DNA of 64,000 bases from Antedon mediterranea (lineage: Eukaryota; Animalia; Echinodermata): positions 18,586,795-18,650,794 of the forward strand of contig NC_092670.1 of assembly GCF_964355755.1 (NCBI RefSeq), written 5' to 3'. The notes below the pieces were generated by a model. The model saw nothing but the letters and a program-made list of their open reading frames with translations, had not been told where the DNA came from and did not search any database. Of the stretch, positions 30,354 through 61,892 are shown one piece after another. Both the position numbers and the translations under genes were made by a program. Each line of letters opens with the position of its first letter. Position 1 is the first letter of the stretch.

Positions 30354-32089
30354 ATGACAAAACAAAGGACAAATAAAAGACCAAAATCTTATTACATCAA
30401 GTCTGCTCATAAGAAGGGCAAGTATGCCGAGCAGGAGCTGGATGCTGGAATGAAAGGATTCATAATAACCTGCAATTACAACGAGTTTAAATGCAGACAA
30501 GATGCTTATCAACTCTTAAATGAATATGCTGATGAAATGTATGGCCCAGCAGTTCAAGGCTTTGTAAAAGGTATATGTTGTTTGTTTTGTCTTATTTGAG
30601 ACAACTTTCAGGTCTTATCCATCTTCATTCACTGGAAGCTGAGATTGTTGTCTCAGCTGGAAGTGAGAATATGTTCTGTGGATTGAGTAACTAAGTAACA
30701 AAAAATACATGTAGAAACTGCTGATTGGATTATGGTTATGTGTTCAAGAAAATGGAGATTTTAAACAATTATATTATTTTGATTTATAAAATAATTTTCC
30801 CATTAGTCTTTGTACATATACTGTACTTTCCTCATTCATAACTTTATTTTTTCTTTAGAAGAAGAAAGTGATGATGATGATGAGGAAGATTTTGATTTGG
30901 CATTGAAAAAGGAAGTATCCAGCATAAAAGAGAGAAAGCAATTTAGATTCCAGGCGTTAAAAACTAGTGCAAACAATGTGTTGTTTATTAAAGCTGATGT
31001 AAGTACACATTTGCTATACATGTCAGCTGCTACTGCTATGGTCTCTTGACATGGTTGTGCTCCCCACTTTGCTTTCGTTTAAAGGGAAGACACCTTTTTT
31101 TTATAGTAAAACTGTATACCTGCTTTCACTTAGTACCAGATGATATTCACTTGAAGCAATAGTTTATAACTCGACTGCTTCATGGTTACAGGATGGAGCT
31201 ATACAATTGTATAGCTCCATGGTTAAAGAAACTGCTCTTGCATGGCTTGTCGTCTGGCTTTTGATTCATTCAGACTATTATTAAGACATTTAAGTGTTAT
31301 TTAAATGTTATTTTTATCTAGATTGAAAATCCATGCGAGCTAGCCCATTACATTCTCAGTGATCTCCAAGAAACAAAGAAGTTAAAATCACGCGCCATCC
31401 TTCGTCTTCTCCCTGTCAGCGGAACGTGTAAAACCTACGACGACAAGTTAGAGCAACTTGCAGACAAAATTGTTGCACCTCATTTTGAATTTTCATGTAA
31501 AACATATATGTATGTTATTAAAATAAGAATCAATACCACTGTGAAAAGCAAGACTATTATGGGTATCTTGGATAGGATTATTCGGAGGAATGAAGATTTG
31601 AATCATCGGGCAAACATGGATAATCCGGAATTGGTCATCCTTGTTGAAGTTATCCGTAATGTATGTTGCATGAGCGTTATCAAGGATTTCAAGAAGTTTA
31701 GGAAGTATAACTTGCATTCCATTGTTGAAGTTCTTGAAGATAAAAAGGAAGGAAAAGAAGAAAGCAAAAGAGATGGAGAAATAGAAGAAAACCAGGATAG
31801 TGCAGAAACTGAAGAAAAGAAGGATAGCGGAGAAACGGGAGAAAACAAGGATAGTGGAGAAAAAGAAAAACACAAAGATAGTGGAGCAAACAATACTTCT
31901 GGTAATGGTAAACCAGAAGAAATAAAGACTGAAAAGGCTGAACAGGATAAATGTGAAGGATTGCAAAAAGCTGGTGGAGAACAAAAAGAACCAACAACAG
32001 ATAAGAAGATGGTAGATGTCAATACTATAAAAGAGGAAGCTGTGGATGTTGATGATGAACCAAAACTAGAAACAAATGCCAGTAACTAA
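30354..32089 (+). CDS. THUMPD1: THUMP domain-containing protein 1 (tRNA acetylation adaptor)
   Basis: Exons about 30354-30570, 30859-30998, 31322-32089; GMKGFIITCN..E.KC..DAYQLLNEYADEMYG, LKKEV..IK..RFQ..NNVLFI, SRAILRLLPVSGTCK, NPELVILVEVIRNVCCMSVIKDFKKFRKYNL, acidic tail. Confidence 0.95.
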
Positions 32090-32399
32090 AGACAACTATA
32101 TCCAAATTTAGGAATAATAATTTACATATACATTTATAATTTGTCCAATACAGTATTGGTTTTCTTTATTTTGCACATCAAGACTCCCAGAACAACCCTC
32201 ACTACTAACAGATTAAATAACAGATCAAAAATGTACTTATTTCTTTTTTGCTATTGAAGGAAGAAAAACTCTTTACCATATTAAATTAGATTTAAAATGC
32301 ATTATGTAATACTAAATACTGTACTAATTTACTTGGAATTACAAGCCAATATAATATTAATTTATTGCATCTATGCTAACTAACATCTCATAATAATTC

Positions 32400-32975
32400 A
32401 TCTTACAAAAATAATGCTAAGACCTTGTACCTTGATTTTATACTGAAAAACTTTGTAGGGTATTAAATAAAATATTTTGATGCTATGATAATGCAATTTA
32501 ATCTTAACTGCATCTTTCCTATATAACATCAAAATATGAATATCCTACTGTATACAAAATATTGGTAAGTTTTAAACATTTTACCCTGATTTTATTTAAT
32601 AAATATATACTGTAATTCTAAGTAGGTCGGGTATTAAATAAATAGGACATTTTGATGTTCAATATTATGCTATTAATTTAAATTCCTGATATCTCAATAT
32701 GAATACCCTATAAAAGTATTGCCAAATTCTCAACTTTGTACCCTGATTTTATTTAATAAATATATACTGTAATCCTAAGAAAAGTAATTAAATAAATAGG
32801 ATATTTTGATGTTCAATATTATGCTATTAATTTAAATTCCTGATATATCAATATGAATACCCTATACAAATATTGCCAAATTCTCAACTTTGTACCCTGA
32901 TTTTATTTAATAAATATATACTGTAAATCTAAGAAAAGTAATTAAATAAACACGATATTTTGATGTTCTAGTAGC
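32400..32975. repeat. About 155-bp tandem repeat (3-4 copies) between the convergent THUMPD1 and MSRB1-like 3' ends
   Basis: taccctgattttatttaataaatatatactgtaa recurs near 32583, 32739, 32893; one related copy near 34606 in the other MSRB1 3' UTR. Confidence 0.85.
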
Positions 32976-32977
32976 AT

Positions 32978-33044
32978 GGCCAGATACCTCAACTCTCAAA
33001 GTCTTCCATTAAGGCTTTAACTTGAGCGTGTCATACTTTGGTCC
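32978..33044 (-). promoter_or_regulatory. SECIS-like element in the 3' UTR of the non-selenoprotein MSRB1 paralog
   Basis: Minus strand ggaccaaagt ATGAc acgctcaagtt AAA gccttaatggaa gactttgagagt tGAg gtatctggcc: AUGA/GA quartet, about 11-bp helix, unpaired AAA, lower stem. Confidence 0.85.
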
Positions 33045-33218
33045 GTCGTAATGCCACAAAAACATTAAAATATGTTCTCGAGGTTTAATGCTGTTGCATT
33101 TCTTTATTCATTTCTAGAATTAAAGAAAAAAAAACATGGCTGTGAAATAAATAATGAGAATATTTAGAGCTATTACATTTTTAGAGGTTTTAATCATGTG
33201 AGTGACAAACTGCTTACC

Positions 33219-34194
33219 TTAAGCAGGAACAAAGCTTAAAGATGACGAGAATATTTGGAAGCTTGACTTGCCATCGGGACCACCGCCGAGAATTTCATAT
33301 CCCAGATCATTACCACATTTTGCACAGGTTACCTACACAGAAAAATACAATTTGAATCTCTTGGCCAAACTTTTTGCACAAACCAGCATTTTCTGACTTT
33401 AATTGGTTTGTAAGCATGTGCAGATATTTATAATAAGTTTTATTGCTTCATCATAGTTGACATGTCTACCAATACAAAAAGTCAGTAATATACAGTATTG
33501 CTATTCAGTTTGTTGACTTTACCTTTAATTTATTCTGGCTTTCATCTCTTTTGAAAACACTATCGGCATTGATAGTCTCTGTAAAGGCAGGCCAAGCTGA
33601 AGAGTCTTTATATTTTGCTTTGCTGTCAAATAGCTCATTGTTACATTTTGAGCATTTGTAGATACCTTGCAAAGACAGAAAAAATTAAGCAGTTTAAACT
33701 ATTTCGAGCTTGGTTTAATTAATGGATTTGATTAACGTGCTGAAATCAAAATGTTATGCACCATGCCTCCCTCGATAATATTGTCATTCGTTACTAAGAG
33801 GCAGTGCAGAGTAAAACTTTATTCAAATAATCTACAACTTAAATTAATAAATAAATTGCACTTGGAATTTGCCTGCACTGCAAGGTAATTATGCAAGAAT
33901 TTCTTTCTAACAGTTCTACTATATGATTTTTGGTAATAAAAGAAAATTGCTAAAATGTGTACTAGTTTTTATTAACTAAAGGCTTTACAAAGTGGGCCCT
34001 AGGCCTAACTTAGGTAGTACTAACTAGGGGTGTAACCCTCTAGCCAGTTGCGACCTTCTAGTACTATAACTGGTATGTTGATCGGCAGTCGTTAAAGAGA
34101 AACTTTACTTTACTACCAATTAAAACTCCAAATTACCATCTTCAAAATGATCTTTGTATAATATTTCTCCACCCCATCCAGCAGCGAACGACAT
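33219..34194 (-). CDS. MSRB1 (SelR/SelX) paralog with Gln in place of selenocysteine; probably not a reductase
   Basis: Three exons: [107 protein letters not shown] and splice sites intact; CAA at 33255-33257. Confidence 0.9.
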
Positions 34195-34675
34195 TTTGAT
34201 CAATTAATTGACGGCAAACGGGCAAAACGAAAAAATGATTTTGTTGCGTTTACTTAGTTGATTTTAAGCTTGGTTTCTCAACAGGTATGTCGTTTAATGT
34301 TTCCCCTCGAACACTGTATATTATTTGACCAATTAAACCGCGATGGATCATCCGAACTGTCCTTTGTGATTGATCAACTCACTTGTGTTGTCAAGCGGTA
34401 ACTTATGTGTTGTTCGTGTGAGCGTGGACGTGACGACGATGACAAAGGATTTGCATAGGCGGCGACATCAAGGAACATGCACTGCTGTCAATAAAACGCA
34501 CTCTCTTTGAACACAATGTTTTTATTTATTTAGTCCTTGATTCATTTATTACATCTTTGCTAACGTTTCAATATAACTTATCATATAAAAATATTGCTCA
34601 ACATTGTACCTTGATTTTATTTAATATATACTGAGTAGATTAAATAAATAGGATATTTTGATGTTCTAGTAGCAT

Positions 34676-34743
34676 GGCCAGATACTTCAACTCTCCAAGT
34701 CGTCCATTTAAGGCTTTAACTTGAGCGTGTCATACTTTGGTCC
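34676..34743 (-). promoter_or_regulatory. SECIS element of the MSRB1 selenoprotein
   Basis: Minus strand ggaccaaagt ATGAc acgctcaagtt AAA gccttaaatggac gacttggagagt tGAa gtatctggcc. Confidence 0.9.
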
Positions 34744-35621: not shown

Positions 35622-36648
35622 TTAAGTCTTCAAAGCAACAAACTTCAAAGACTCTGAGAATATTCAAAAGCGCGATTTGCCATCAGGACCGTCGGTAAGA
35701 AATTCATGCCCCAAACCATTACCACATTTTCCACAGGATACCTACACAAAACAAAATCTCTTGGTCAAAATTTTGTGAAGCGATAGGAAGGTGTCACAAC
35801 ATTGATCGGTTTGCAGAGAATCGAAAATTGGAAAATATAATTGCAGGAGCAATGACTTATCTCTGAAATAGCGCTATACAAAGAATTTATTCATAAAAAA
35901 AGTTTATATATACTTCCTTGTTGACTTACTTTTAAGGCATTCTTGCTTTCTTCTCTTTTGGAGACACTGTCAGCGTGAATGGTATCTGTAAATGCAGGCC
36001 AAGGTGACGAGTGTTTGTATTTCTTCTTGCTGTCAAATAGTTCATAGCCACATTTTGAGCATGTGTACATACCTTGGAAAAAAAACATTAAAATAATACC
36101 TTTTTTGCGTTTACTATATTACGGACACAACAAAACGCAAGAGATTTCAAACACTACTTGGATCTGGTTTGTTAAAAAACAATTTGACTACTACTACTAG
36201 GCCTAGGTCTACTTCTACTGACAGGGAAAAATTTCATTTTAAAATCAAATTGATTTTTGAGTTGAGAAACATAGTTTTGAATTGTATTTTTTGCTAGACA
36301 ATTTTAGAAATGTGTACAGTACAGTGTAGCAATAAGGTTTTTTTGTATAGCTTTTTGCTATGCTACACTGGCGAAATTATTCCCTGATTGACTAAACTAG
36401 CTAAAAGCTAGGAACAACAACTAGGCCTACTTCCGCCTAAATATGGAGAGACAGGGCCTGTTGGTTCTACTCTCTCTGATCTAGCCCTAGCCTATCCAGG
36501 GAGAGAGGCCGAATGCCCTACTCTCTCTCTATAATTTAAGTCTAGCTAGCTAGGCCTAACCCTAAAAAACAGTAAATTTTGGGTCGAAATTACCATCTTT
36601 AAAATGGTCTTTGTACTTTTCCCCAGAAAACCACCCACAGTACGACAT
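35622..36648 (-). CDS. MSRB1: Methionine-R-sulfoxide reductase B1, selenoprotein (in-frame TGA = Sec at 35664-35666)
   Basis: [105 protein letters not shown]; matches the MsrB1 motif SRFUIFS, two CxxC zinc motifs and the N-terminal resolving Cys; SECIS downstream. Confidence 0.96.
36222..36386. mobile_element. CAGGG...CCCTG MITE, second copy (inverted relative to 4150-4324), in MSRB1 intron 1
   Basis: tgctatgctacactggcgaaattattccctg is the reverse complement of the start of the 4150 copy; flanks actga / attga. Confidence 0.85.
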
Positions 36649-36649
36649 C

Positions 36650-37565: not shown

Positions 37566-40383
37566 ATGGAAGCCCCAACAAATTCAGATGAGACATCTGC
37601 AACAGAAACAGAAATAACTCAATCAATGGAGACATGTGACAAAATTGAACCTGGAGTGAAAGAAAATCATTCTTCGGTCAATACTACCAGTAACGAATCC
37701 TTAAAAATTGAAGATAATTCATCAGAAAAAAAAGAAACTGATTTACAAAATGAAAAAATAAATGAGGATGGTGACAACGTCTCATCAGAAACTGTTACTT
37801 TTAAACTTGTTTACATGAAGAAAAATTATGACATTACCTTTGAACTAGATGCTAAAATATCGCAGCTGAAACAGAAAATTCAAAGTTTAACAGGTAACAA
37901 AGATTAATCCAGGAAACAGATCAGATCTCTTTTAATATTATTTTTAGGGAGTTTTTGGTCGAACAATTAAACCTTAATTTTAACGGATTAACATTCTATT
38001 AATTTGCATAACAGCATAGTTGCGAACAGTTGTGTTAACATACTTCAATTTTTATTCAATGAAGGCTTAGAAAAAACACTTGCCAGTGTTTAAAACCATA
38101 GGACTAGAGGAGGTGTAGATCTTTTTTTGCATTGAACTGAGTTTACAAGTTAGAAAATATTGTTAAAATTAAGGTTTACAAAAAGTCTCTATTATTAGAA
38201 AAATAATCCTTTCATTTTAAAGATCACTCTGTAATTTTTGTAAAATATAGATTTTTGTCTTGTGGTAAAAGACATCAATTCAATACAATTATATTTGGTG
38301 ATCTCTCTAAACCTTACTTGATATTTATTTAACGAAATTATATTTTTGTTAGATGTGCCGCCAGCTATGCAAAAATTAATGTACAAAGGGTTGGTGAAAG
38401 ACGAACAGACATTACGAGAGTCAAAGGTCACGAAGGGTGCTAAGATGATGATGATTGGTTCTACACTTAAGGATGTGTTGACGGTAACAACCACTCCAAC
38501 AGCATCTGGTGTACCTATTCAAGAAACAGGTATGTAATAAAGTTTATGTGACAAAAGAATGTGATGTGCCCATATATGGACATGATGATGTCAAATTACT
38601 ACCATATTTGGGCACATCACACTTTTTTGTTAAACTAGTAGAATTTATTCTTTATATTATGTACACCCTTCATTCAGTATCAATATCATTTTAAAGTAAA
38701 TTATAAAAAAGAGCATTTTTAAGATGTATAACAGGCAAATTTAAAGTTGGTTGTTATGGCATATGGTAGGTTGTTCATGTTCCTTAAATTCAGTAATAAT
38801 ATTAATGAAGATTTCTTTCGCCGCCAAAGGTGCTCAAGCATTGTACTTTTTTAATGGTACTTTTTAAATTTACATAAAACTATTTCAAAATTATGATTTT
38901 CGTAATAAGTTCTATGCATGTCATCTGAAATTAATACTTTAATTTACTCTATTTGCATATTATATATCTATACACATCCATTGAATTCAAAGTATTGTTT
39001 GTGTTACAGCAGGCACCACGAAAGAGCCATTAAGTCGGCAAAAGCTTCATAAAAAGGTTCTAGATAAAGGAAAACCAGAGGATATCATGCCAGGAATCAA
39101 AAATAAAAAGGTATCAGGAGTCAAATTCATCAAATGTGCTTATAAAAAAAACCCAACAAATTATTTTAAAACTTTATTTTAAACTTAAACTAACATATAG
39201 AAATTATTTAAAGATATTTAAATGAAGTCAGATAATAAAAAAATGCTTGATAAATGAAACCTCCTGTTTTTCACTTAAGTACCTTTTGACTATCTTTCAC
39301 TTAAGCAAAAAGATTGATAACTGCCAGTCCTGGTAATCTTCTATCTCATTCCAGATTATTGTTAGTACAAAGTTACAATCTTTACTTTCTTTGCAGGAAC
39401 CATTACCAAATTTCCCAATATCAGGAATGTTCAACAAATCTGGTGGAAAAGTACGGCTAACTTTTAAACTTGAACTAGACCAGTTATGGTTAGGAACAAA
39501 AGGTATTATTTGTTTTTTATTTTGATGTTTACAGTTACAATTCCATGTTTGAACTCTTTTTTATTTATCATCGTTAAAATATAAAGAAATCAGAAACTAA
39601 GGTCGATAAAGAGGTAAAAATGAAACACATAAATATTTGAAATGAGCTTGTAATGTACCCTAAAATTAAGTATCATATTATTATTTAAAATCATAACTAC
39701 AGAACATAGACTAACTTTAACCATGAACTATAGAGTAGTTCCATGCTTTAACCATTAAGTGGCATTTTCATTTTAAAGATCAGCAAAAGAGATCAGAAGT
39801 GATGGTAAATAAGCCTAACAAGCTAATGACGGTTTTTCCCCTTTCATTGAAAAACTAAACCCTCTGTAAAAATCTTGTATATTGTCTTGTATGTATTACT
39901 TTTCTTGTATAAATATGTCAATTTCAGAGAGAACTGAAAAGTTAAAGATGGAATCGATTAAAAAGGTTGTAAGTGAACCAATTGAAGGCCACGAAGAATA
40001 TCATATTTTGGTGAGTTCTCTGAAATCTTTATTTTGCATTTATAATTTATTAATAAAATAATTAATTGCAGGATTTTTTGAAAAAGTTTGATAGTGTAGA
40101 CAGGGCTTTATAGCCAGTCGGTTATAACAAACATATAGTATTACTGTATACATGAATGCATTGTGTGGTGTGGTTTACACAAACAGCGACATTTCAATCA
40201 AGAAAGAGATCAAATAAACCAGCAAATTGCCTAGCTAACCAAAACAAATATATATAAACTTATTTTTAGGCCCTCCAGCTTGGCCCAACTGAAGCCTCGA
40301 GATATTGGATATATTGGGTGCCAGCACAATATGTGGATTCTATCAAAGATGCAGTTCTTGGTAAATGGCAGTCTTTCTTCTGA
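37566..40383 (+). CDS. UBFD1: Ubiquitin family domain-containing protein 1
   Basis: Exons about 37566-37893, 38352-38529, 39011-39110, 39397-39502, 39928-40010, 40270-40383; VPPAMQKLMYKGL, KEPLSRQKLHKKVLDKGKPED, GMFNKSGGKVRLTFKLELDQLWLGTKERTEK, ALQLGPTEASRYWIYWVPAQYVDSIKDAVLGKWQ. Confidence 0.96.
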
Positions 40384-42337: not shown

Positions 42338-44689
42338 TTTGAATGAAGTGTATTAGATAGACAATAGGAAAAAGGTGTTTTTAAGGTTTAAACATACAGC
42401 AGTAATGGTCCAAAAGACTCCGCGTGGAATAAGCTCCTTTTAAATTGCGCGCGAAAATTCTTAAGACGTTAATTTAAATTAAAGCGCGTGTGAATAAATT
42501 AATACGCGCTCTTTACAACGACTGCCAAAGATAATATAGCGCTGCTGCTATACCATCTACCTCCTTTAACAACTATAATCTAATTGTGATTATAAAACGG
42601 TCTCTATTTAAAGTAGTGTATACTATAAAATTTGAATATATGTTTAATTGCCTTTTCCATTCCCGGCCGGGCAACAATTGTCATCACAAGAACCTGTAAC
42701 TAATCAGTTAAAATGATCAAATAAATTGCTTTTAAATTCTCTCTATAATATTCCACTAATCTACAATTTTTTTTTTAAATCTGCGTTGTTTCTGATATTA
42801 ATGTAGCCTATACATTTTTACATTTTATTCATTCATTAAATCCTGCTCTTTGCCTGTCCGTCATAGAGGGCCTTATCCGCGTTACGTTTAAATGCAAGTA
42901 CATTACTATAATATTCACACACCATGTACCGAGGTCTTATATAGATTCAAGACGAAAGATATTAAGCCTTCAGAATAATTACTTTCTATCTCTGTACCAA
43001 AGAGGGATATCTATACGTCACATCCGGTTGATTAGGATTTGAAATAAATGTCATGTTAGCTACTGCAGTGCTTGTCTAGTTCGTGCCGTTTTCCAATCCA
43101 TCAATTTGTCTTATTGTAAACCATTGATCTATGTTTCTCTTATCACTGTCACGAAACGTATCCATACAATTTAATGATGATGCGATACTGTTGTAGATTT
43201 GTGTACATCTATTTCTGTTGTTGTAGTGACTTGCTTGCTTATATCGTTGAAGCATTTTACTTATATTATTAAGTCTTATGTAGATTTGTTTCGGTATATC
43301 TAACACAATTATGTTAATGTGTTGGAGAGTTGTACTAACAACGTTTTTAAAACTATAGGCATATATAACGATCTCATGTTTCTTGTTTTGGCTGCTGATA
43401 GTACTGAGTTATGCACATTTATTAGTCTTCTTTCGAACAAATCGTGTCACTATACCATTATGTTAATGCTTTTATGTAGCGACCCTGGATTGTTGTATAA
43501 CATTTTCAGTACTGAGTCAAATGGTTATGAAGCAGTGTTTAACTTAACTGGAGTTTTTGAATCTAGAAACTGGCCTCATGCTGGATGATGGTGTAATAGA
43601 ATTTCATTTTAGAAATAACGTCCATAACAGAAACAAAATTAAATGAAACAGAACCCCTATTAACGGGACACCCTCCCTTGAAAAGAAATGTACCCTAAAT
43701 AGCCTTAAATATATCGCTCGTCATTCGTTTAACTTAAAAATGTCCATTATTAGGGGTGTCCCAAAGGATGGAAAGAGGGGAGGGGTGTTTGGTGTGCACC
43801 GGTACGTCTCCTGCGTATTACTTATGCCGTTCCTGATATTCCTGACATTTCAATTAGATTTTTGTAGAAAGTATAATTGTGTATATACAGCATTATATAG
43901 ACCTACCGTATATTATAAAAATACTGATTTTTGTTGCTGTATACAATTGTGCTGGTGATTAGAAATAATGGAATATACACTGTACATACATTACGATGAC
44001 AAAGACCGGAATTAGAGTGCAGCAAAAAAAAAAGAAATCAATGACATTATGTTACAATAATACCGTAGCTTATGCCAGGCATATTTCAATTCAATTAATT
44101 TATTTACCAATGGCAAAATGGACTGTACAGGCCTACGCCAGTTATCTATAATTGAGAGTAGGCGATTGCTAAGAGCAATTCCTGTAATGTTGTGTATCTG
44201 CATTGGATTTGTGAAAGGTTAGCGACCAGCAGTCTAAAATCCCAAACCCACGATTGCAGGTTCAGCGTACTGATGATGATTTTATTTTGAACGACAATAA
44301 ATAAAAAAACAAAGTCCGTTAAAATTGACGTATAAAAAAACAAATTTAATTTTGTTCGCAGATATTCAAAGTCTTAGGCTAGCTATTTACACACGTCGTA
44401 CGACACACAGCAAGAACGTCTTAATCTCTGTTTACACCATCAAACAATTTTGACAAAAACAGTTGTGATGTGCTTAAATATGGTAGTGATATGACATCAT
44501 CCTGTCCATATTGTTTTGTCACAGTTTGATAGTGTAGACAGAGCTTTTAAGTCGACTGCTTCTTATTAGTTCGCTCAGAACCATTGTTTATCCCGTATAT
44601 TTGATTATTGGTTTAAATTTGCATAATAACCACAATAAACACAGCAAGGATGAAGTATTACCCCGGATACATTATTTTTTTCCTATTAG

Positions 44690-46021: not shown

Positions 46022-49000
46022 TTACTTATAAATAGCTCCACACGAGGCACACCTCTGTTTCGACATCATGAGGCAACATATCAACCCCATAGGAAAAAAG
46101 AAAACCGCACAACAAATTCCAAGAACAGAATATGACACTTTTAAGTCAGTTCTACAAGTTGGACAGACGCTGTCCAGGGCTACCCACTCGTTCTGTTGCT
46201 CTTGCATTTTGATTGTATGTTGATCCGAACCTGGCGGACCATGCGTGTAAGCTACTACAGTAGTTTTTGTTGCCATATTCGTCGATTGATTTGCTTGAAG
46301 AAGGCCAGATGATGAATATTTAGGAATCTGCTGGAATTGGCCGGTGTGGTACTGACCACCGGTGTGTGGTGGTGGTGGGTACACAGGCTGGTTTGCCAAG
46401 TATTGACCAGTGTTTGGTTGGTAAATCGGTGGTTGGCAAATCGGTTGATTCGTCTGGGGCGGGTAATAGCCCGTCTGATGTGATTGCTGCCACAGCGGAG
46501 GATATGACGGATCTGTAAATCAGAAAAGAAAAAGAAGTTAAAATTTAAATTCATTATAAACTAGATACTGTATTTACTATTTGATTAAGAATACCTCTTG
46601 GTCAACAACAGCAATGTGCGATGAGTTCACAGAATATAGAACACTGTACGGTGATTAACGTCACTTTGGTAAATGCATGCTACCTCAATATTTCAGCGTT
46701 GTGTATTTACAGTTTTTTTTTAAAGCTAAGTATTCGGTACCGAGTAAAGAATGGAATTCTGGGCGATTCCATTAGTGGCACTGCGCATTAGTGTCCTTTC
46801 GTACCTTTATAAAAAGTACGATGTAAAACTCTACACTATCAAACTAAAAAAGGTCATATACAATATGGCTGCTGTCGCGTGCTTAAATTTGAGTTAGTGT
46901 TTACCGACCGACCGACCGACCAACCGACCGACATAGTGAGAGCTGTAGAGTCGCGTTTGCACGCGACTAAAAACACAAAAAAATGTGCAGTGATGTGCTC
47001 AAATATGGTAGTGATGCCCAAATATGGTAGTGATATGACATCATCATGTCCATATATGGGCAAATATATTTTATCATCAAACTAGTTTGATCATGGACCT
47101 ATTAGTCCATGGTTTGATAGTGTAGACAGAGTTTTAAGCACATACCAGATATTGCTTGATTAACTTATTGCAAAAGATCGCGTTATAAATTGATATATAC
47201 TGTTGCATTTTAGTGCACTACCCCTGAGCATCGAATGATGACGTAGCACTGATACCTAATGAGCTGTTCATCGAAGCTGTCAAGCAATAGAAACAAATGG
47301 CGATTGCTATATATTAATTTTCACATTTATTTCAAAACCGTTTCACATATAACCTTTTACGTTCATTTGAGACTATTATAATTTTGCACACTTTTAATCA
47401 AATTTGTTTTCACTTTTAATCGTTACTCGCATAATTGATATGTTTTCAAATTACAATTCCCGATCATTTTATCTCGCATATGTTTGCTGTCCTACGTACG
47501 CACGTACGTGCCTTCAAGCTTGGTTCCCACTAGTGACGCAACGCAAGGACGTAACGCAACGCAAGTGAATTGACCAATCACAAGCGATGGCTTATTCGCT
47601 TGTGATTGCTATAACTGTCTATAACTTCGCTTGTCATTGGTTAAAACGCTTGCGTTGCGTTTACGTCCTTGCGTTACATTCTAGTGGGAACCAAGCTTTA
47701 AGCTCTGTCTACACTATCAAATTTTATGTGACTAAAAAATGTGATGTGCCCATATATGGACACGAGGATGTCATATCACTACCATAATTGGGTATAACGC
47801 TTGGGCACATTGATTTTATGCTCGTTTTATTTATTTATTCTATGTTATTATACTTTGTTTCTGTGTTTATCGTATGAATACACACAAAATACCGGTCCTT
47901 GCGCACTATCTACCAAAATATGTTTGCCTGATCATCAATAATACGTATTCGATCGTAGATGGCTGTTATTATTGTAACTCTCCGTGGAACGATAAACAAC
48001 GACTCTTCTGGCCAGAGCAAACTTCAAATAAATTATTATAATATACAATATTCTACAACTAGTTCGTTATGAACTATTCTCGCTGTAATTCAGGAGATCA
48101 CATTGTTGTTGTTTTACCGTTGCTGAAACGTTAAAACGAAATATAATGTAGCGGCTATCTATGGGAAAATAAGTGCTTATTACCTTCCTCCGTGGCTACT
48201 ATGACTAAACCGACTATGTTATACCAGGGAGTTGTAAATTAGTAATTACAACTCCCTGGTTAGGAACCTTCAATGATGGTTATACGGTTTGCGATTTATA
48301 GTTTATCTATAGTTTTACTGATATAACTCTATCGAACGACCTGATCACTCTTTATAAACAATCATCAACTGCACTACCCCTAGGATCAATAGCATAACAG
48401 ATATAGAAATGATTCGGAGAATAGCAGAAAACAAACAGGAGGAGAGCAATACGATATTATAAACAAAGCAGCCGAGGCGGGAAAGTCAGACTATCTGGCG
48501 AACCGACAATAAAGTATAAGTAAAGTTGTTTAACTGAGAATGGTTTCTTGCTAGGTTAGTAATTGGTCACTCGGTTGGTTAGTAAATGGTTAGTTAATTG
48601 TTTTGCTTCCCAGACAGTTGATTGGTTGCAAGAATCAGTTACCCAATCCGTCGGCTGGCTGTGGTTAACTGATTTGTAAAGTAAAGTTTAGATTGACTGA
48701 TATATGTTGGAAGTTTGCTTTGAAATCGTTCTTTGTAAAGCGATATAAATGATCAAAACGAAAAACATACAAATAACCAATTACCGTTAAATATAAGTAT
48801 CGTATCATGAATAGCCTAATTACCATAACAATTATTTTATGTAATTTTTAGCAATTATTATTGATAATCCAATCATAGTCATGAATTGTAATCTTCTCAG
48901 AAAATGCAAATTTGACTTATTGAGATTATACAGCTATCTGCTGATAGCCTGGAGAATTCTGCTTAATATCCTTGACGACTTCAGATTTGCGATCGCAGAG

Positions 49001-52159: not shown

Positions 52160-54481
52160 TTATTGGTATATAGCGCCACAAGATGGACAATGCCTGTTCC
52201 TCATCATTAAACAACACAGCAAACCGAGCGGGAAAAAGAAAATAGCACAACATATGCCAAGTGGGGTAAACGACTCCTGTAGAATACCGATGTGACACCG
52301 TGGACAAGTCGTACCAACGACTACCACTTGACTTGTGGTAGCGCCTTGTTGTACAGTGACGGTTTGGTGTACTGCTCCTGAGGGACCGGATGAGTAAACA
52401 GTCGTTCTGGTGTTTGGTGGTGGATAGGCTGCCATCGGCTGGTTTGCTTGTGGAGGGTATGGAGAATATCCAGCCGGTTGCGCTGGGTATCCTGTCGGCT
52501 GTGGTGGATACACTGGATCACCAGTAGCTATAAAATACAAATTCAGTTCAATTTATTTCCACAATACATAATAACATACAGGATACTAAATACAATAAAG
52601 TAATCATGGGGTGGGGGGTCATATAAGTCAGAAAGACTTTAAGTTTGACCCATCCCAACATATAACAATAAATACAAATACGAAAAAGAAAAAAAATACA
52701 TAAACTAATAATTATTAATATTAAATAAAAGAAAAACAAAGCTACAATTTGATTCATCATAAATACTATGGTACGATATGAGGGGAGCCAGCCCGTAGAC
52801 TCGCATTTCTTTCTATGAAACAGTCTTTAGAAAATGTGTCTTTCATGATCATGTTTCTTTGATCCTCCTCCTAGGAGGACGCAGCGTAAGTGCAGCGCAA
52901 GTAATGCTTGGTTTCCACTAGCGACGCAATCCACGCAACGTAAGAAAAATTTCCAATCCTTCCAATCGGTTGCCTCCGCGCGCCTGTGTGAAATCAAAGC
53001 TACGATGTTTGCAGCACAATTGTATCAAAGATTGTATAGCGCCGCTACGCGGCGCTATACAATCTTTGATTGTATCGTCGGTTCCCACTTATACAACACT
53101 TTGCTTCAATACGTCGTTGCGTTGCGTTCTAGTGGGAACAACCAAGCTTTAGTCCCTTTTATACGCCGCAGGAAAAAATGATTATTCCATGCCTATTTTT
53201 CAATTTTAACGCTCATCCCAATGACGTAATTAATTTGAATTGTATACACCCCTACCTGATCGTCAGGCCTATATTAATAATATTCATATTGAACAAAGGT
53301 TAATTCATATTGTTAAATTAATCATGTAACGATGTTTGTATTTTGGATGATGTATATTGATTTCCCTTCGGTTATTACTTCCCCTTTGGCCTATTAAAAT
53401 GCATGATCTCTATGTCGACATTAACATGAGACCTAATGTTCATATAATACACCATGGACAAAATTGATATAGTACTTGTTTTGTCCATGCATAGACTGGT
53501 ATTTATTCGATAAAGCCTGGACCCGTACTCATTTTTGTTTGGAACGAATTACAAACTTTCATAAAATAAAATAATTATTAGACTTTTATGTGGTTTCGGT
53601 CAATTAAAAATGGAATTGTTGCTTAATATGTCGATAATAACTGTAATGAACTTTTAATCTAAAAAAAAAGACACGCCAAGCAAATTTTTGAAAATAAATT
53701 CAACAGTGGACTTGAACAGAACCCATCGAAAAACCGTTTCAACTGCCGTTTCAATCCATCCCACCTGAAGTAAATTTATGTATGATTACTATCCTACTGT
53801 ATCAGAATAGCGTTTTATTCAGCACTGCTCAGGCTGGTATATTATAAACATTATTTTTATCGACTTATTATTGTATTGATTTCGACAAAGGGCTTGATTC
53901 TAATAGGCATAATGGTTATTTAATTGCTCCTTATTGCATTTTGTTATTTTAAAACTATTGTTGTTTTATTACCATTATTGAATAAATGTTATTGAACTTG
54001 AAAATAAACAGTACCGCTGCTTACAGCAAAACACGTATGATTTTTTGAACTCCGGGAATGTTTTGTTTTAACATGCTTGAATGTGATCTAATACATCACG
54101 GTACATAAAAGAATTTGGCTAAGAAGACATAAAATAGTCAAAATCCAACTACCCACTCTTTTCTTTTCTTTTTTCCCACTGGGAATTTTCGATATCATCA
54201 TCTTGTTTAATGTCTTAATAAATTTAGACACCAATTGGCACTTTTTATGCGATAATTTGCACCACCATCATGTCCAATATATTATAAGCGATTTTAAAAG
54301 CAAATCTGCCACGGGCCTCAAACCCAGTCTCTGCCTGATAAGTAATTAATCGTCCGCGCCATCTTCTCTGAAATGATGGCAATCAAGAAAGAAATTTAAT
54401 TGTCTTCTTACCGGATTTTGTCCATCCTGCTTCGGGTGGTGAGTATGGTGGCGGCTGCGTGTTTCCTGCAGGGTCTGCCAT
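52160..54481 (-). CDS. BRI3-like membrane protein, paralog 2
   Basis: Exon 1 54412-54481 (MADPAGNTQPPPYSPPEAGWTKS) plus exon 2 52160-52527 ending VVVVGTTCPRCHIGILQESFTPLGICCAIFFFPLGLLCCLMMRNRHCPSCGAIYQ*. Confidence 0.9.
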
Positions 54482-56226
54482 AACGACTGTTCAAAATATT
54501 AGCCAAAAAATGATATAAAATGACTAGGATAAAATAAGTTGGTTGATCGTCACAAGAAATTTTAGATCCAATTTTTGTATTCAATATACAGTAACTAATA
54601 ATGTTGCTACGTTATAATGTAAACTCGTGATTGGACCTTGTACCGGGTGTGCTTTCGCTGTCGAGAACAATTAAGACCGTGTCATCCATTCAGAATTTAA
54701 TAAATAACTTATTAACTTTCATCAGCCTTTTAACTGTGATCGTCCGATGACATTTAGACTACAATAGCCAACTTGTTTGATTACCGTCGAATGTTTATGT
54801 AATAGGCGGTATAGTAGGTATAGTACGTATATAGGTAAATTGCCTATTATAAATCATTCAATTCGCCCTATGAGTGGTGATGTAAACCGCACAGGCAATG
54901 TAGGCCTTACGCTTTGAGTGGTGGTGGATACTACCGGATAACATTTCATTGCTGATGATAGGCTGATTATTGTTAAAATTAATCACAATCATCATGATTC
55001 AGTGGGGTAGAGGTGTTAAGTAAATTGTTTGTTAGGAAATGTTTTCGAGAGTCATATCCTGTTCGCCAGTCGCTACCCCCTTTCCCCCTCCAAACCGTCC
55101 CTATCCATTTTCTCCTCCCATTTGAGCTCAACTTCGGTCAACAATGATCTTTATTATAAGTAATTACTAAATAACCATTTTTTTCTTTTCTTATCTGAAT
55201 ATTTTAAAGAAATCGAGTACTTGTTTGTTTGCTATCCATTAAGGTAGTAAATACTGGTTGTGTACGTTTAATAATTTTATTTTTATTAACTGTTTATAGT
55301 TCACCCAGGGAGTTGTAAAATGATTATTATTATTATTTTACAAGTCATGGTTCACCCATATATAAGTGTAAGTAAATAAATAAAAAAAATAAAGTGTGTT
55401 AAAGTTCATTGGATGACCGAACAGTTTTAAATACCGCCCTCTTTAATTTCAGAATAGTTCCTGTTCCTTGTCATGTGACCATATCGAAATAGAATGTTTT
55501 TCACATGATTGTTTATGACGAAAAATAAAATTCTCTACTGAACTGTTGTTTTCAGCATATTGTTGTGATATACTGACATTTGCTATATAATTAATATATA
55601 TCGGACACGTAATAGTGCTTTTATGTTGTACCAAACAAATAAGGTAAACATTGTCGTTAGTTTTTTTGTACTTATTTAGGTATTTCTCCCTCTTTCTTAG
55701 TTAGGCCTCCAGGCTCTAGCCTCCTACCTATGCTGCTAGGCGTAGGACTTGGCCGGTTTGGTTGTTTGGTGCTCGGAGATTAGCAGGTAGGCCCAACCTT
55801 CTTTAATAGGCCTACTAGACTAGGTAACAGTGCTAGGAGGTGGTAGGGGCTAGGTCTAGTAGCAGTATTACTTGGTATTTAGACTAAAAAGCTACTGTTT
55901 TTTATGTGGTGTAGGCCTATATGTTAGATTTTAGTTTTACTACTTGGCTAGAAGAGAACAGATGTATAATGGAGCTAAAATAAGACAGCTCAGTGCAGTG
56001 CTGTCACATTTTCTGTGGAAAGTCTATATACTTATTTTTAGGAATCTTATATGTATATTAACGATACAAAACTGTACAAACAGAACAGAGAATTATAGCA
56101 ATTAATGCTATATAATATTAAATAAATGTATCATAATTTCTATTGTTAATGTTAATATTAAAGGTAATCACTACATTCCAGAGAACCGAAAAACAACAAC
56201 TCTACTAAGCTACAATATCATAAAAC

Positions 56227-57454
56227 ATGTCAGCACCTCAACAACCTCCACCTGAAGAGAAACCCCCAGCATATAATGGCCAAGGGATGATGCCACCAAA
56301 AATGGCCAATGGTGCACCACAAGGCTATGGCATGCCACCACCTGGATATACAAGTAAGGACTGTCATTATTATGGCTATATTGTATGTTCTAACAGTACA
56401 TTGAATTTGTATTCTGTGTAATGTATTAAATTATGCTTATCACTAATTATGTAACCTGGAAATTTATCTTTATCATTTCAATTTACGTTTTAGTCCAGTA
56501 AAATTACATCTTATTATAAATTTCTTCATTTAATTATCTCTTTATATATTGTTCTGATCTTATTTTTGAGATGAAGATAATGATCTATACAAAATTTACT
56601 GTAAAGTGCTGAAATCCAAATTTATAAGAACATTTTTTTATATGGCCGCCACTTTATACTTGAGTATTTATTATTATTAAACATCAAAAGCTTTGGAAAT
56701 ATTTATCAACTATGAATCATAATGACTTGAGGCATGGAGTGAGAGAATCAATGAATTGCTAACATAGAGCAGTCTACCAGCATACTATATCTAATTATGA
56801 TATAATAAAATGACTGTACTGTATTACACATAATCAATAAAGTAATCAATGTTGAGAAATAAGGGGATTTTCAAACATTGTAAAATAGTCAGCAATAAAT
56901 ATTATGCTGTTACTGAATATGAATAAAACTTATACTCCAAATAAAAGATTAAATCAACCTTTCGATTTTTATTGGATCATCATCAGTGTATCATATTTAT
57001 TTTAATACCTACCTACCTTATAGTGTTGGTATGGTTGGTATTTGTATTTATAATGCATTTTAATTTAAATATATGTAGTATAATTTAATGCAGTGACCAT
57101 TTCTTTATTATACAGTTCTAATTTATATAATAATTAAAGCATGTAATTGGTTATAAAATAACTTTTTATTTTTATTTTCTAGGCTACCAATCAGGGGCAC
57201 CACCAGGTTATCAGCCAGCGCCACCACAACCAGGATACCCCCCTCAACAGGCATACGGCCAACCAGTCACAGTCACGCACACCACAAATGTGGTTGTTGT
57301 AGGTGGGTGCCCTGCCTGTCGAGTTGGTGTTCTCGAAGATGATTTTACCGTCCTTGGTGTGCTCTGTGCCATTTTATTTTTTCCGCTCGGAATTCTGTGC
57401 TGTTTAGCAATGAGGCAGAGGCGATGCCCAAATTGCGGAGCTGTATTTGGTTAA
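56227..57454 (+). CDS. BRI3: Brain protein I3, the most conserved copy
   Basis: Exons 56227-56353 and 57183-57454; EKPPAY...VVVVGGCPACRVGVLEDDFTVLGVLCAILFFPLGILCCLAMRQRRCPNCGAVFG*, close to the vertebrate BRI3 C-terminus. Confidence 0.95.
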
Positions 57455-60400
57455 TATTTATTATTAAGAATCATGTTTGGGGTCAGGAGATGGAGCAATT
57501 GAATCATTTGAATTACCTGGCTGGCTCAGAGGGGAAAAAACTTTAGACAAACATGTTTTGAGTCTTGGCTTTCACTCTTTAAGAGAAATTTATGATTCGA
57601 AAACTGACCATTAGGCCTAAAAAAATGTTATTGTTATATTGTCCAATATTTAAATAATTAAATGAGAGAAATATTGGATTTGTGAGTTACATTTCCACAA
57701 TTTTATCATGTATTATTTCGCTGTCTTTCCCCTCTGAGCTGGGATGGAATATTTTTTTAATTTAAAACATTTCTACTACTACGCAATGCAAGCATTTTAA
57801 CCTCTTAAGTTATTTCCTTCGTAAACATGGAATAACCAAGATTGTTTATTTAAATGATTTTTCAGGTTTTGTTTTGAAAAAGAATTTGTAATTTTAGTGA
57901 TATATTTATAAACATATACAAAGGTAATCTTGGGACTTTCTGTATATAATTAACATAATTATTATTTGCTTGATATTGTTATTTCCCATATTTGTTCATT
58001 ATTTCCCATATTTGTTCATTATTTCCCATATTTGTTCATTATTTACACAAGAATATATAGATATTATTTTAATATCTTTGAAGGTTATTGTCTATTGAAT
58101 ATACAATATAGTTTAAAATATTTATTTTTAATATTGCAATCCTTTATTACCGTATAATTTGCCGTTTTTCTGCTTATTAGAGTTTCTACTTTTTTGTGCT
58201 TATATTTCACTTTGAGTAAGCCAATTTTAAAAATAATGTTATCCAAATAAAATAATTGTTGGCTGCTCAAATAAATTGTAGGGATTCGTTATTGAACCAT
58301 GCAACTATAAATTAGGTAGGTCCATAAAGGAACAATGGTGGTTTTGTTTATTGTCCAAATTCCTGGATTTGAACCAACAATACTGTGGAATTGATATCGT
58401 ATTACAATGCAATATTACATCTAGTTTATGGTTTTTATATTCTCCGTGAACCACTGCATATTCTGTCATGGCTATACTAGACGAATTTCTTCTCAACAAC
58501 ATTCCATGCACGTAACACATTTACGTTATTTAATTAGGCACAAATATAACGTATGAAATCGAATTTATATTTCAGCCCAGTATAGTTATATTTGAATATA
58601 GTATGTTTAAAAAAATTTTTTTTATTATTCATGGAATAGATAAAATTAAACAATAATTGCTTTATACTTGTTTGTTGATAAATTACATATAGCGATAATG
58701 CTATAATAACATGTTAGGTACTATTAAAGTAGCTATATTGGTGTTATCACCGTTTTCAGTAAACTATAATAGAATAATAAATCATTTATACAGTAATTGG
58801 TTTTGTTTTCTTCTGTGTCTACTTTAAATAATATTCGCGCCGCGCGAATGTATGAGTTCAGATTGGTTGCGCACTTATGTTGCATGCTACAGGGCGATAA
58901 CGATCGACGAAATATATTACATAAAACAAGTTTTCATTCTATTACTATAGGATAACCATTTATACTGTCGTTGAGAAAAATAAGATTTTTTTAAATCAAT
59001 TGACGATTAAAAACAAAATCGTTGTATCGCCACGATGTTATTGCCCTTACTAATCATGACGTCATTTGAACGTGTGAAATGGTCATCATGGTTCCTAGTT
59101 CTATAGCATGGAGTTGGTTCTAGGAGGGAGTTGTAATTTACAAATCCCTGGTTCTAGGATGAAAACTTAGTATCTATCGTGGATCGTTATTTCTTTTGTT
59201 TTATGTTTGAAAAATGCAAATCTGTTCAATCGTATAAAAAATGAATGATGAACAAGTTTGTTTAAAAACTAAATGGTGACTGGATGGGTATTTATTTTGT
59301 GTGAATAGGCCTATGTGGACGTTTTAGCTAGTAAGTTTTTGCACTGGCGGGATTTTAGCCCTGTTACCGTATATTTTTCGAGAATATACACATTGTCTTT
59401 GGATTTAATTTTGGTAAAAGATGAGTCTCGGCGTCATTAGGTCTATAAAATGTAAATTCTTTAGAGTTGTATAATGAGATGTTGATGTAGGCCTGGTTTA
59501 ATCATGAAGGTATAAACAATCAATGTTATACCTCTAAATTAATTCACGGCAGTGGTTTTTAATCCATTTTGTGCGTTTATCCGTCTTTTATGTAGGGCCT
59601 GGGCCTAAATCAAGGACTTTAGATAACAGTTAAAGTCCTTGGTCTAATACATGTTTAAAATGTTGCCCATGTATAATAGGCCTACAGTACTAGTTACTCT
59701 GTAGTGTTAATTGAATTCACGGATTTAAAAAAAGGTCGATTCGTTAATGACCAGTTATTAACTCGTGCAAGAAGAATGCTATACCTGCACAAAATGTGCT
59801 AAATAATCAATAATCCTGATGGTACGTGAAGTCAATATAGAATAGTACTGTGGTAGGTCATAGAGATAATTAATATCTCTATGATGAATATGCAGAGTTC
59901 GGTTGATTGAGAGGAACTAGACTGCGCTTGTTGCCGTGTCATGAGTTTTTATTTATTTATTTCCATAATTGCCAGTTAAGGTAACCTTGGTAGATAATAT
60001 TGGTGAATTGAAAAAATTGACCAAATATTATTGTTAGACGATAATATCAAAATTATGAAATACAATTACGTCATTGCCTCAAAAGTGGGAGGCGGTAGAG
60101 GGCGGTAGTCAACTTTTGAGTTGGTGATAGTACTGTACTAATGATTGAGAGATTTATTAGTATCCAAACAATTATACTTGACACAATGCAGAATCTTCCC
60201 AATTAAAAACGAATGTTATTCTAACGAAATTAATTTCAAGATACCACTGGGACACCATATGCCGGTAGCGTATATACAAGAAAATTCAAATAAATAATTT
60301 CAGTTTGCTTGATATTAATTAATTTGATGCTGAATTGGATTGGGATAAGCAGAGACAAGTATATGCTTATTTTAAATCCCAACCAGAATTGTATTAAATA

Positions 60401-61892
60401 TGACAATGTTAAATATTTAATTGTTATAGGCCTACTGTTCAAAATTAAGGTAGTTTGTGCTATTTAACCGGTTTTTGTTGTTTTTTTGATTTTCTGATCG
60501 TTAACTTTGTACATTTTGATGCCTATATAGTATATTTTAATTTTATGTATTAATTATATTTGAGTTTTTTAGACATCCTGTAATTATTGGCGATTTTGCT
60601 GTTGGATGTATGTGAAATAAAATAAAGTAAAAACACTATTTTGGTTGATCATGTACTGTATTGTTGTCCTGTTGTTTGAAACCCATAAAATATGACTACG
60701 TTCCAATGGAAATAAGTTGACATACTTTTAATTGTCGACTTAATTGGTTATCTAGGTATTCTTTTACTTTTCTATTTTACTATTTTAATATCGAATAAAA
60801 TCAATCAATCAATCAATCATGGAGGTATATTTATACCTCCATGAATCAATCAATAATTATTACGATAATGAATTAATTTATTAAAATATTAACAATAAAT
60901 TATTAATAAAACTAATCATTTTCAGTCTCGTATCTAAACTTGTGCGAACATTTTTACAGGATTTCCTCTCGTAGTTTATGCTGTTTTTCAAGGAATCATT
61001 ATCTCTTTCTAATTAATCACAAAAAAACCTATAAGAAATTGAATATCTATATTCGTAATTTCCGATGAATAAGTGGCGCTATACAACAAAATACTTACTT
61101 TATATAGATCATGGAATGGCACGATTGACCTAGTCGGGCCGTGCTAATATCATATTTTTCGATATTTATAATTGCATAAAAAAATAATAGTGGAAAAAAG
61201 TTCGCGCTGGGTGTTTGTTGGGTTTCGACTGCTGATGGAAGTTAATTTTTAGCAGTTTTACTAGAAAATAATTTATTTGCGCATGGTTCATCGCCTTGAA
61301 CGTTTGGATGAAGGTATGTACATGTAATAAATTGTAATCTGGTATTATTTTAAAAGTTTAATAATGTTGTAGGTTGAATGTTGGCTAGGCCTAGGCCTAG
61401 GCCCGGTTTATTTTACTAGACTAGAGCGCGAGAGACTCAGTCCATACGTCACACACAGTACACACACCGACTGCTGTGTAGTCGTTTCCTGATGACAGAT
61501 GTTGTCCCTTGTTTTATTTATAAAGGTAGGCCTAGCATAGCCAGCCATATTAAATCAGATTTGTTTGCACAAGACCAAGTATTGACGTATTACTTATTTT
61601 AAAAGTAATTAAAAACTTTCTCATGAACATTTATGAATTTATTTAGTTAGGCAGGGCCTAGGCCTAGTAGTAGGAGGCTAGCCTACCTAGGCCTAGTGTG
61701 AATTTGAAAAAAAAAACAAATAATATTAAATATTATTATTTAAGTTTTTGTTTATTTTCTGCCTTAAAATTAAAAAGATTGTTTTTCCCCTTTTCATACT
61801 CATACCACTGTAATTTATAATATATATTCAAATTCATTAAAACATGCATGCTTTTTTACAGTATTCTCTTTTTCTACAGCCTATGTTACACC

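What the first reader, a model, noticed from the sequence alone, without database searches (positions are those of the whole stretch)
31185..60850. Dispersed 20-45 bp hairpins with CA..TG ends and 7-bp target duplications: probable P/Galileo excision footprints
Seen: gtttgat[catggacctattagtccatg]gtttgat (47092-47111, inside a family-A MITE whose other copies show the empty site); attgtat[caaagattgtatagcgccg..cggcgctatacaatctttg]attgtat (53026-53068); ctttaac[catgaacta..tagttccatg]ctttaac (39722-39745); gttcacc[cagggagttgtaa..ttacaagtcatg]gttcacc (55306-55349); gttctag[.agggagttgtaatttacaaatccctg]gttctag (59124-59150); aatcaat[catggaggtata..tatacctccatg]aatcaat (60818-60843). Weaker cases: 31192-31221, 48225-48258, 53453-53489, 59611-59641. 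The same cagggagttgtaa end occurs three times with different middles, and targets lean towards a palindrome like GTTNAAC. Established: P-superfamily TIRs start CA.RG, Galileo makes 7-bp palindromic TSDs, and P transposase leaves about 17-nt overhangs that end-joining repairs into short TIR-TIR footprints. Inference: a dense record of excisions by several THAP-transposase families, or ultra-minimal mobile units.
Basis: partly seen in the sequence, partly recalled or inferred. Interest (0 to 1): 0.78.

Follow-up and report, generated by a model that had tools for sequence, protein, structure and literature searches.

The report
Excision scars of P-type transposons
These 20-44-letter hairpins in an animal genome mostly sit between two copies of a 7-letter target, and one family recurs at dozens of other places with constant ends but varying middles; they are likely scars left when jumping genes related to the fruit-fly P and 1360 elements cut themselves out, although no parent element was found.

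Summary
Real, not chance. All ten sites are at the stated coordinates and six have an exact 7-bp duplication. Six hairpins with perfect CADRG ends and 10-bp arms stand against 0-0.02 in Markov controls. 47092 is a clean 20+7-nt insertion against six sibling MITE copies. Contigs of one individual show at least 26-31 other loci per run matching the 48225 hairpin end to end, with unrelated flanks and many different middles. Targets fit the 1360/Hoppel motif GTTNAAC (4.0 of 6; background 1.67) better than Galileo's GTANTAC (2.8). Lengths (20-44, median 30.5) match fly P-excision junctions (median 30 for those of 18 nt or more). Not shown: a parent with the same ends, a THAP transposase, an empty allele, or a 17-nt cap (53026 has 20-bp arms). 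New here: a 211-bp MITE with the same end and target grammar (62988-63198), and local clustering of sister scars. The scan reported such scars in six findings on other genomes. Verdict: new member of a known kind.

The parts
31192..31221 (.). 30-nt perfect palindrome (first base G for C), CATGGAGCTATAC end; flanks GTTACAG/GTTAAAG; between THUMP-gene frames
   Evidence: reads as 17+17 joined on a self-complementary AATT (one reading among several)
39722..39745 (.). 24-nt hairpin, CATGGAACTA-type ends, exact TSD CTTTAAC; between UBFD1 exons
47092..47111 (.). 20-nt hairpin, exact TSD GTTTGAT, inserted in a high-copy MITE
   Evidence: 27-nt gap in 6 of 6 sibling copies
48225..48258 (.). 34-nt hairpin, type copy of the CAGGGAGTTGTAA family; left flank GTTATAC, right flank disturbed
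   Evidence: pile-up of contigs from other loci with variable centres
53026..53068 (.). 43-nt hairpin with 20-bp perfect arms, exact TSD ATTGTAT, inside a MITE-like element; longer arms than a 17-nt cut predicts unless the centre is templated filler
53453..53489 (.). 37-nt hairpin, 11-bp arms, TSD 5/7
55306..55349 (.). 44-nt CAGGGAGTTGTAA-family copy with (ATT)n centre and damaged right end, exact TSD GTTCACC
   Evidence: fly junctions carry similar TTA-run fillers
59124..59150 (.). 27-nt CAGGGAGTTGTAA-family copy, exact TSD GTTCTAG
   Evidence: fits a 17+13 join on a 3-nt overlap with 2 mismatches
59611..59641 (.). 31-nt hairpin, CAAGGAC ends, 11-bp arms, TSD 3/7
60818..60843 (.). 26-nt hairpin, CATGGAGGTATA ends, 12-bp arms, inside an (ATCA)n run
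4426..4443 (.). added: 18-nt possible fourth CAGGGAGT-family copy; left ATTTAAG, right ATTT+ATTTAAG
   Evidence: weak
42526..42558 (+). added: degenerate sister of 53026 (first 17 nt with 2 mismatches, then a GCT run and part of the other arm), no TSD
58298..58326 (.). added: degenerate hairpin with ends like 39722 and 47092; left flank ATTGAAC
   Evidence: weak
59503..59539 (.). added: degenerate sister of 60818, right end lost; left flank GTTTAAT
59859..59883 (.). added: 25-nt CATAGAG hairpin with 10-bp arms but no TSD; membership doubtful
62988..63198 (.). added: 211-bp non-coding element with CAAGG/CATGG ends, about 30-bp imperfect TIRs and TSD GTTAAAA/TTTAAAA; likely a P/1360-type MITE, the kind of element whose excision would leave such scars, but not the parent of any hairpin here
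   Evidence: only hit of its kind in the window against Markov mean 0.02

Best explanation
The hairpins are insertions with a 7-bp target duplication and are likely end-joined donor-site scars of P-superfamily transposons of the 1360/Hoppel target type. Shown: insertion, 7-bp register, GTTNAAC-type target, dispersed families with constant ends and variable centres. Inferred: (1) a longer element, autonomous or a MITE like 62988-63198, inserted and duplicated 7 bp; (2) its transposase cut flush on one strand and some way inside the terminal repeat on the other, as fly P does at 17 nt, so both chromosome ends kept a single-stranded stub of the element's end; (3) end joining trimmed the stubs, joined them on 2-4-nt overlaps or added short filler, giving TSD-stub-stub-TSD of about 20-44 nt, different at each event. 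The scars would be dead, because P mobility needs transposase sites lying inside the 31-bp TIR. At least four end types in the window imply several transposon families.
For: Enrichment. Clean 20+7 insertion. 26-31 listed contigs per run from other loci end at 48258-48262 with unrelated flanks (agreement about 0.5), and 28 of 31 in run X1 continue with GT. The 11 best-supported indel rows on the hairpin all fall at its positions 11-22, and no single change exceeds 18-24% of depth. TSDs score 4.0 of 6 to GTTNAAC against background 1.67 (0 of 200,000 draws), and 2.8 to GTANTAC (motifs from PMC3276498 and PMC4168063). 1360 makes 7-bp TSDs in 274 of 279 insertions. Fly junctions keep both TSDs and two TIR stubs: of 63 isolates coded from PMC2895639 Table 1, 39 are 18 nt or longer (25 of 18-34, 14 of 35-44, median 30), against 7 of 10 at 34 or less and median 30.5 here. 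TTA-run fillers occur in both. 9 of 10 sites have ungapped arms of 15 bp or less. No element with these ends between 46 nt and 15 kb in the window. Fly mechanism and internal binding sites: PMC7776569.
Against: No parent with any hairpin's end was found (5 metagenome hits were chance; 0 viral). No P/THAP frame in the window. 53026 has 20-bp arms, and its sister 42526 also continues past position 17 in a similar way. The three simplest joins predicted from the 48225 end (32, 28, 27 nt) match the length classes but not the exact gap positions. only sees copies at least 80% like a 34-nt reference, so it cannot show a size cap. Palindrome centres can also mutate after insertion. No empty or full allele was seen in the one individual. 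The CA.RG consensus is recalled, not retrieved.
Confidence: 0.74

Rival explanations
1. Same transposon families, different route: the hairpins are extreme internal deletions made by aborted gap repair, or by deletion between the TIRs of a MITE during replication, so arm length reflects where copying stopped and not where the transposase cut.
For: Abortive gap repair plus microhomology joining is proposed for MITE birth, including P derivatives (PMC3814204). It explains 20-bp arms at 53026. A 211-bp element of the same grammar exists.
Against: 10 named sites at 20-44 nt and none with those ends at 46 nt-15 kb in the window suggests a size gap, which this route does not predict. The length spectrum matches direct end joining in flies.
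Confidence: 0.13
2. They are mobile mini-MITEs made only of two TIRs (like an ultra-short Made1), copied as units and later decayed in the loop.
For: Dispersed at dozens of loci with intact ends and TSDs. Some centre variants sit on single high-depth contigs, which suggests a few identical copies (for example the row 'left out 2 at 48241'). Made1 is a mobile near-palindrome (its size is recalled).
Against: No dominant middle (at most 18-24% for any one change). Excess depth bounds near-identical copies at about 13-21 for 48225, 53453 and 59611, against about 8,000-14,000 for true MITE bins (depth is only a rough guide). P needs binding sites 9 and 21 bp inside a 31-bp TIR.
Confidence: 0.07
3. 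The parent is not a P-superfamily element but another cut-and-paste family with 7-bp TSDs (a hAT branch with 7-bp TSDs is recalled), with the hairpins as deletion remnants.
For: No transposase ties these ends to P. The window also has a CAGGGA-ended MITE pair with 5-bp TSDs, so CAGGG ends are not unique to this group.
Against: 7 bp with GTTNAAC is the measured 1360 signature. hAT/Transib/MULE excision hairpins the flanking DNA and would not leave TIR stubs between two whole TSDs (established knowledge; PMC5499845 seen as abstract only).
Confidence: 0.04
4. Chance palindromes, or transposon-independent template-switch insertions.
For: A+T-rich window; 3 of 9 loose-pattern hits look like chance; 59859 lacks a TSD; 60818 lies in a microsatellite.
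Against:: shared ends at unrelated loci, a fixed 7-bp register and a target motif cannot come from local copying.
Confidence: 0.02

Closest known systems
Drosophila melanogaster P-element donor-site junctions (PMC2895639 Tables 1-3, passages read; mechanism PMC7776569, passages read)
   Same: Both target copies kept, two head-to-head stubs of the terminal repeat, variable centre with short overlaps or A+T-rich filler, same length range
   Different: 7-bp rather than 8-bp target; natural and fixed or common rather than induced; several end types; cut depth unknown; one site has 20-bp arms
1360/Hoppel/ProtoP (P superfamily; PMC3276498 Tables 3-4 and PMC3698922, passages read)
   Same: 7-bp TSD and GTTNAAC target motif
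   Different: Its TIR sequence and cleavage pattern could not be retrieved; no transposase here; found in a non-insect animal
Galileo (PMC4168063, passages read)
   Same: 7-bp palindromic TSD, P superfamily
   Different: Target GTANTAC fits worse (2.8 against 4.0 of 6); the long foldback TIRs have no counterpart here
Zebrafish Pdre2 / THAP9 (PMC10983969, passages read)
   Same: Deuterostome P element with short 13-bp TIRs starting CA; short TIRs would explain asymmetric stubs as at 53453 and 59611
   Different: 8-bp TSD; its transposase gave larger flanking deletions in cell assays
Made1 and other miniaturised MITEs (PMC3814204, passages read)
   Same: Near-palindromic TIR-TIR unit born by end joining
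   Different: Amplified as a uniform family; the hairpins here vary from copy to copy and are far fewer

Membership tests
P-superfamily excision footprint (1360 type) | Fixed 7-bp TSD, both copies kept | tested here: met
   6 of 10 exact, 1 at 6/7; 6- and 8-bp registers fail; 27-nt gap against siblings
P-superfamily excision footprint (1360 type) | Target motif GTTNAAC | tested here: met
   4.0 of 6 against 1.67; 28 of 31 other-locus flanks start GT; motif from PMC3276498
P-superfamily excision footprint (1360 type) | Two TIR stubs head to head with event-specific junctions | tested here: met
   for the CAGGGAGTTGTAA family only
P-superfamily excision footprint (1360 type) | Stubs no longer than the staggered cut (17 nt in fly P) | tested here: inconclusive
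   9 of 10 arms 15 bp or less, 53026 has 20; without the parent, stub and filler cannot be told apart
P-superfamily excision footprint (1360 type) | Terminal consensus CA.RG | tested here: inconclusive
   Ends fit CA.RG, but the consensus is recalled; search found no source; fly P and Pdre2 share only CA(T)
P-superfamily excision footprint (1360 type) | Longer parent element with the same ends | tested here: inconclusive
   None in 64 kb; genome not held; the 17-nt match is probably too short for the contig tool; a 211-bp element of the same grammar but other ends exists
P-superfamily excision footprint (1360 type) | THAP + P-type DDE transposase acting on these ends | not testable with these tools
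   0 of 210 window frames hit a P or THAP family; the rest of the genome could not be searched
Galileo | Target GTANTAC and long foldback TIRs | tested here: not met
   2.8 of 6, below GTTNAAC; no long TIR element
MITE (mobile mini-element) | Uniform size and sequence, high copy number | tested here: not met
   Many middles, none dominant; tens of copies against thousands for true MITEs

The most novel reading that the evidence does not exclude
The scars are a readable fossil record of 1360-type transposases, whose cleavage I found measured in no paper held. Each family's scars would give its own cut depth (about 17 nt for CAGGGAGTTGTAA, 20 or more for the 53026 family), and the clusters of sister scars (three within 11 kb, from a family seen at only tens of loci; 11 of 15 sites in 14 kb) would be trails of single elements hopping locally in a natural germline.
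Probability: 0.25. Interest if true: 0.62.

Novelty: new member of a known kind. Interest (0 to 1): 0.4.

Why it matters
Excision is hard to see in genomes because most transposons leave 0-4 letters. P-type scars keep the family's identity, so they would let one count past excisions per family, read the cut depth of uncharacterised P-superfamily enzymes, and study germline end joining in an animal without genetics. At about one per 4-6 kb here they are an unannotated source of small hairpin insertions in introns and near promoters, too short for repeat libraries. The mechanism itself is long known from flies, and the scan has met it in other animals, so the gain is extension rather than surprise.

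Tried and rejected
Whole-genome scan: no genome is held. Parent search in the window by exact and relaxed TIR/TSD pairing: only chance pairs, pairs made of two different hairpins, internal repeats of a MITE, and the unrelated-end 211-bp element. Metagenome scan with the 17-nt end: 5 hits, none with a second end within the DNA held, judged chance. Viral scan with the hairpin pattern: 0. Rfam: 0 matches in 64 kb, so no support for an RNA gene. Allele test: four contig sets, all one sample and possibly the window's own source. Contigs bridging 48225, 53453, 55306, 59124, 59611 never lose the 34-51 nt an empty allele needs (largest gap totals 18-35 letters); contigs drop variants, so this is no proof of fixation. 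The first lay was swamped by high-copy MITEs, and 47092, 53026 and 60818 were not bridged by any listed piece. A second version of 48090-48383 is 17 nt shorter with 27 gap letters, but its place was not among the rows shown. Exact prediction of junctions from the 48225 end matched length classes only. Other TSD lengths: 8-bp hits were 14 of 15 in one tandem array, and none was a hairpin. Papers not held: Yuan and Wessler 2011, Majumdar and Rio 2015, Beall and Rio 1997, Marzo 2008, Kapitonov and Jurka 2003; the P terminal consensus and the 1360 TIR therefore stay unchecked. PMC10045372, PMC2817418 (passages) and the PMC8969392 supplements gave nothing usable. Look-ups of earlier findings by sequence or relatives found nothing.
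Full report
Setting. The window is animal DNA of about 33% G+C with eIF3L/Paf67, THUMP, SelR, UBFD1, ARMH2 and three BRI3 frames, and MULE/FLYWCH fragments. Earlier notes on this genome call it a feather star; I did not test that. No whole genome is held, so genome-wide evidence comes only from laying public contigs of one individual on the window.

Observation. All ten sites read as written. Six have an exact 7-bp duplication, and the other four match 6, 5, 4 and 3 of 7; 6- and 8-bp registers fail at the exact sites. Against 60 order-2 and 60 order-4 block-wise Markov windows, hairpins with perfect CADRG ends and 10-bp perfect arms number 6 against means of 0.0 and 0.017. Exact-TSD sites with ends within one mismatch number 9 against 0.8 and 2.1 (maxima 3 and 6), and three of the nine look like chance. 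The pattern came from the finding, so these tests are post hoc; the next three lines of evidence do not depend on it.

First, insertion. 47092-47111 interrupts a high-copy MITE, and 6 of 6 sibling copies aligned lack exactly 27 nt, which is hairpin plus one target copy. Second, target. The six exact TSDs match GTTNAAC at 4.0 of 6 specified positions (background 1.67; 0 of 200,000 random draws reach it) and GTANTAC at 2.8. GTTNAAC with a 7-bp TSD is the measured signature of 1360 (274 of 279 insertions at 7 bp; PMC3276498 Tables 3-4, passages). GTANTAC is Galileo's (PMC4168063, passages). Both are P-superfamily members with 7-bp TSDs (PMC3698922, passages).

Third, dispersal with variable centres. 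Laying four contig sets (one sample) on 48090-48400 at 80% likeness gave 47-50 contigs per run, about 40 only partly laid. Some belong to another repeat at 48324-48397; the rest pile on 48225-48258. Listed loose ends lie at 48218-48225 on the left and 48258-48262 on the right (31, 30, 28 and 26 contigs on the right in X1-X4; 55 rows not shown), with unrelated flanks (agreement about 0.5). In X1, 28 of the 31 continue with GT, and the left consensus ends in GTCTAAT, again the 1360-type target. The 11 best-supported indel rows on the hairpin lie at its positions 11-22 (+1, -1, -2, -5, -6 and 6+1 letters; 45 more rows not shown), and the commonest single change holds 18-24% of depth. Depth excess bounds near-identical copies at about 13-21 for 48225, 53453 and 59611 (134 for 60818 and 309 for the 59124 bin, where other repeats may contribute), against 8,000-14,000 for the MITE bins. 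The tool warns that depth is no copy number, so these are orders of magnitude only.

Mechanism. Fly P transposase cuts flush at the 3' end and 17 nt inside the TIR on the other strand, and the donor break can be repaired by end joining; its binding sites lie inside the 31-bp TIR (PMC7776569, passages; also PMC10983969). Sequenced fly junctions keep both target copies around two TIR stubs (PMC2895639 Tables 1-3, passages). I coded 63 isolates of Table 1 by length, leaving out 3 with deletions beyond the target; the passage was cut, so a row may be missing. 39 are 18 nt or longer, 25 at 18-34 and 14 at 35-44, median 30. The ten sites here are 20-44 nt, median 30.5, seven at 34 or less. The (ATT)n centre of 55306 resembles the fly's TTA-run fillers. 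59124 fits a 17+13 join of the 48225 end on a 3-nt overlap with two mismatches, and 31192 reads as 17+17 on a self-complementary 4-mer, though each has other readings. Steps shown: insertion, TSD, target, family structure. Steps inferred: the longer parent, the staggered cut, end joining, immobility.

Against. No parent with a hairpin's end lies in the window at 46 nt-15 kb, and none of 210 frames of 58 aa or more hits a P or THAP family. A metagenome scan gave five chance hits and a viral scan none. 53026 has 20-bp perfect arms, and its degenerate sister 42526 also runs on past position 17 in a similar way. Templated filler after a GCGC overlap explains both, but so does a deeper cut or an internal deletion. 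Predicted simple joins (32, 28, 27 nt) agree in length class but not in gap position. cannot see copies much shorter or longer than 34 nt: the window's own three sisters score only 50-74% against 48225. No empty or full allele was seen. A second version of 48090-48383 is 17 nt shorter (27 gap letters), which is not the 41 nt of an empty site, and its place is unresolved. The CA.RG consensus is recalled; the papers that would hold it are not available, and fly P and Pdre2 share only CA(T).

Additions. 62988-63198 is a 211-bp element with CAAGG/CATGG ends, 20-bp arms with two mismatches (about 30 bp imperfect) and a 6/7 TSD of GTTNAAC type. It is the only such hit, against a Markov mean of 0.02. 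It shows that longer elements of this grammar exist in the genome. Five weaker hairpins extend the list (4426, 42526, 58298, 59503, 59859). Eleven of 15 sites lie in 47-61 kb (binomial p 3e-5 on a hand-picked list). Two or three sisters of 48225 in one window are unlikely if the family has 200-1,000 copies (p 0.001-0.02 for two or more) but not if it has 5,000. Local hopping and promoter preference are both known for P; I cannot separate them.

Prior art. Searches for natural, genome-wide P-type footprints listed no paper describing them outside fly experiments, but most subscription papers are not held and I saw those hits as listings only. The scan itself has six findings of the same kind in other animal genomes; these are unchecked notes and are not counted as support, but they gave me the PMC2895639 lead.

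Verdict. A real, dispersed class of short insertions that works like, and probably is, the end-joined excision scar of 1360-type P-superfamily transposons (0.74). Membership stays open on parent, transposase and cut depth. New member of a known kind; interest 0.4.

Noticed in passing
window 62988-63198: 211-bp MITE-like element with CAWGG ends, about 30-bp imperfect TIRs and a 6/7 TSD of GTTNAAC type, between frames of a gene with a weak Pex24p-domain hit; its left 37 nt form a hairpin of their own (62988-63024).
   Followed up: partly
window 4150-4324 and 36222-36386: Two copies (84% column identity) of a 165-175-bp element with CAGGGA ends and apparent 5-bp TSDs (TCATA exact; ACTGA/ATTGA); a different family from the 7-bp group.
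   Followed up: partly
window 48090-48383: A second haplotype in three of four contig sets is 17 nt shorter with 27 gap letters and no substitutions; it may involve the 20 nt between the hairpin and the recurring GTTATAC at about 48279, or a different scar at the same site.
   Followed up: partly
window 59087-59157: Upstream of the 59124 hairpin lies a near-duplicate of target plus first 10 nt of the end (59100-59116), like a templated repeat made during repair.
   Followed up: no
window 55306-55349: Contig depth at 55325 is about 60 times single-copy with a consistent 2-letter gap; either a larger subfamily or unrelated ATT-rich repeats.
   Followed up: no
window 46022-46519 (-), 52160-52552 (-), 57134-57454 (+): Three Brain protein I3 (BRI3) paralogous last exons within 11.5 kb, two on the minus strand and one on the plus strand.
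   Followed up: no
window 13019-28642: Scattered MULE/FLYWCH transposase-like fragments (weak hits at 24316-24501 and 27636-27926), interrupted by MITEs and tandem arrays of 17, 29, 70 and 114 bp.
   Followed up: no
window 33508-33684 (-) and 35894-36118 (-): Two frames hit the same part (about 26-73) of the SelR domain, suggesting a duplicated exon or gene.
   Followed up: no
window 1011-47801 (many copies): Two very high-copy MITE families with TTAA-like ends dominate the window; at 47698-47700 one abuts the other.
   Followed up: no
window 3512-4149: Opposed 14-bp tandem arrays form 157-nt inverted arms 324 nt apart, a foldback-like element.
   Followed up: no
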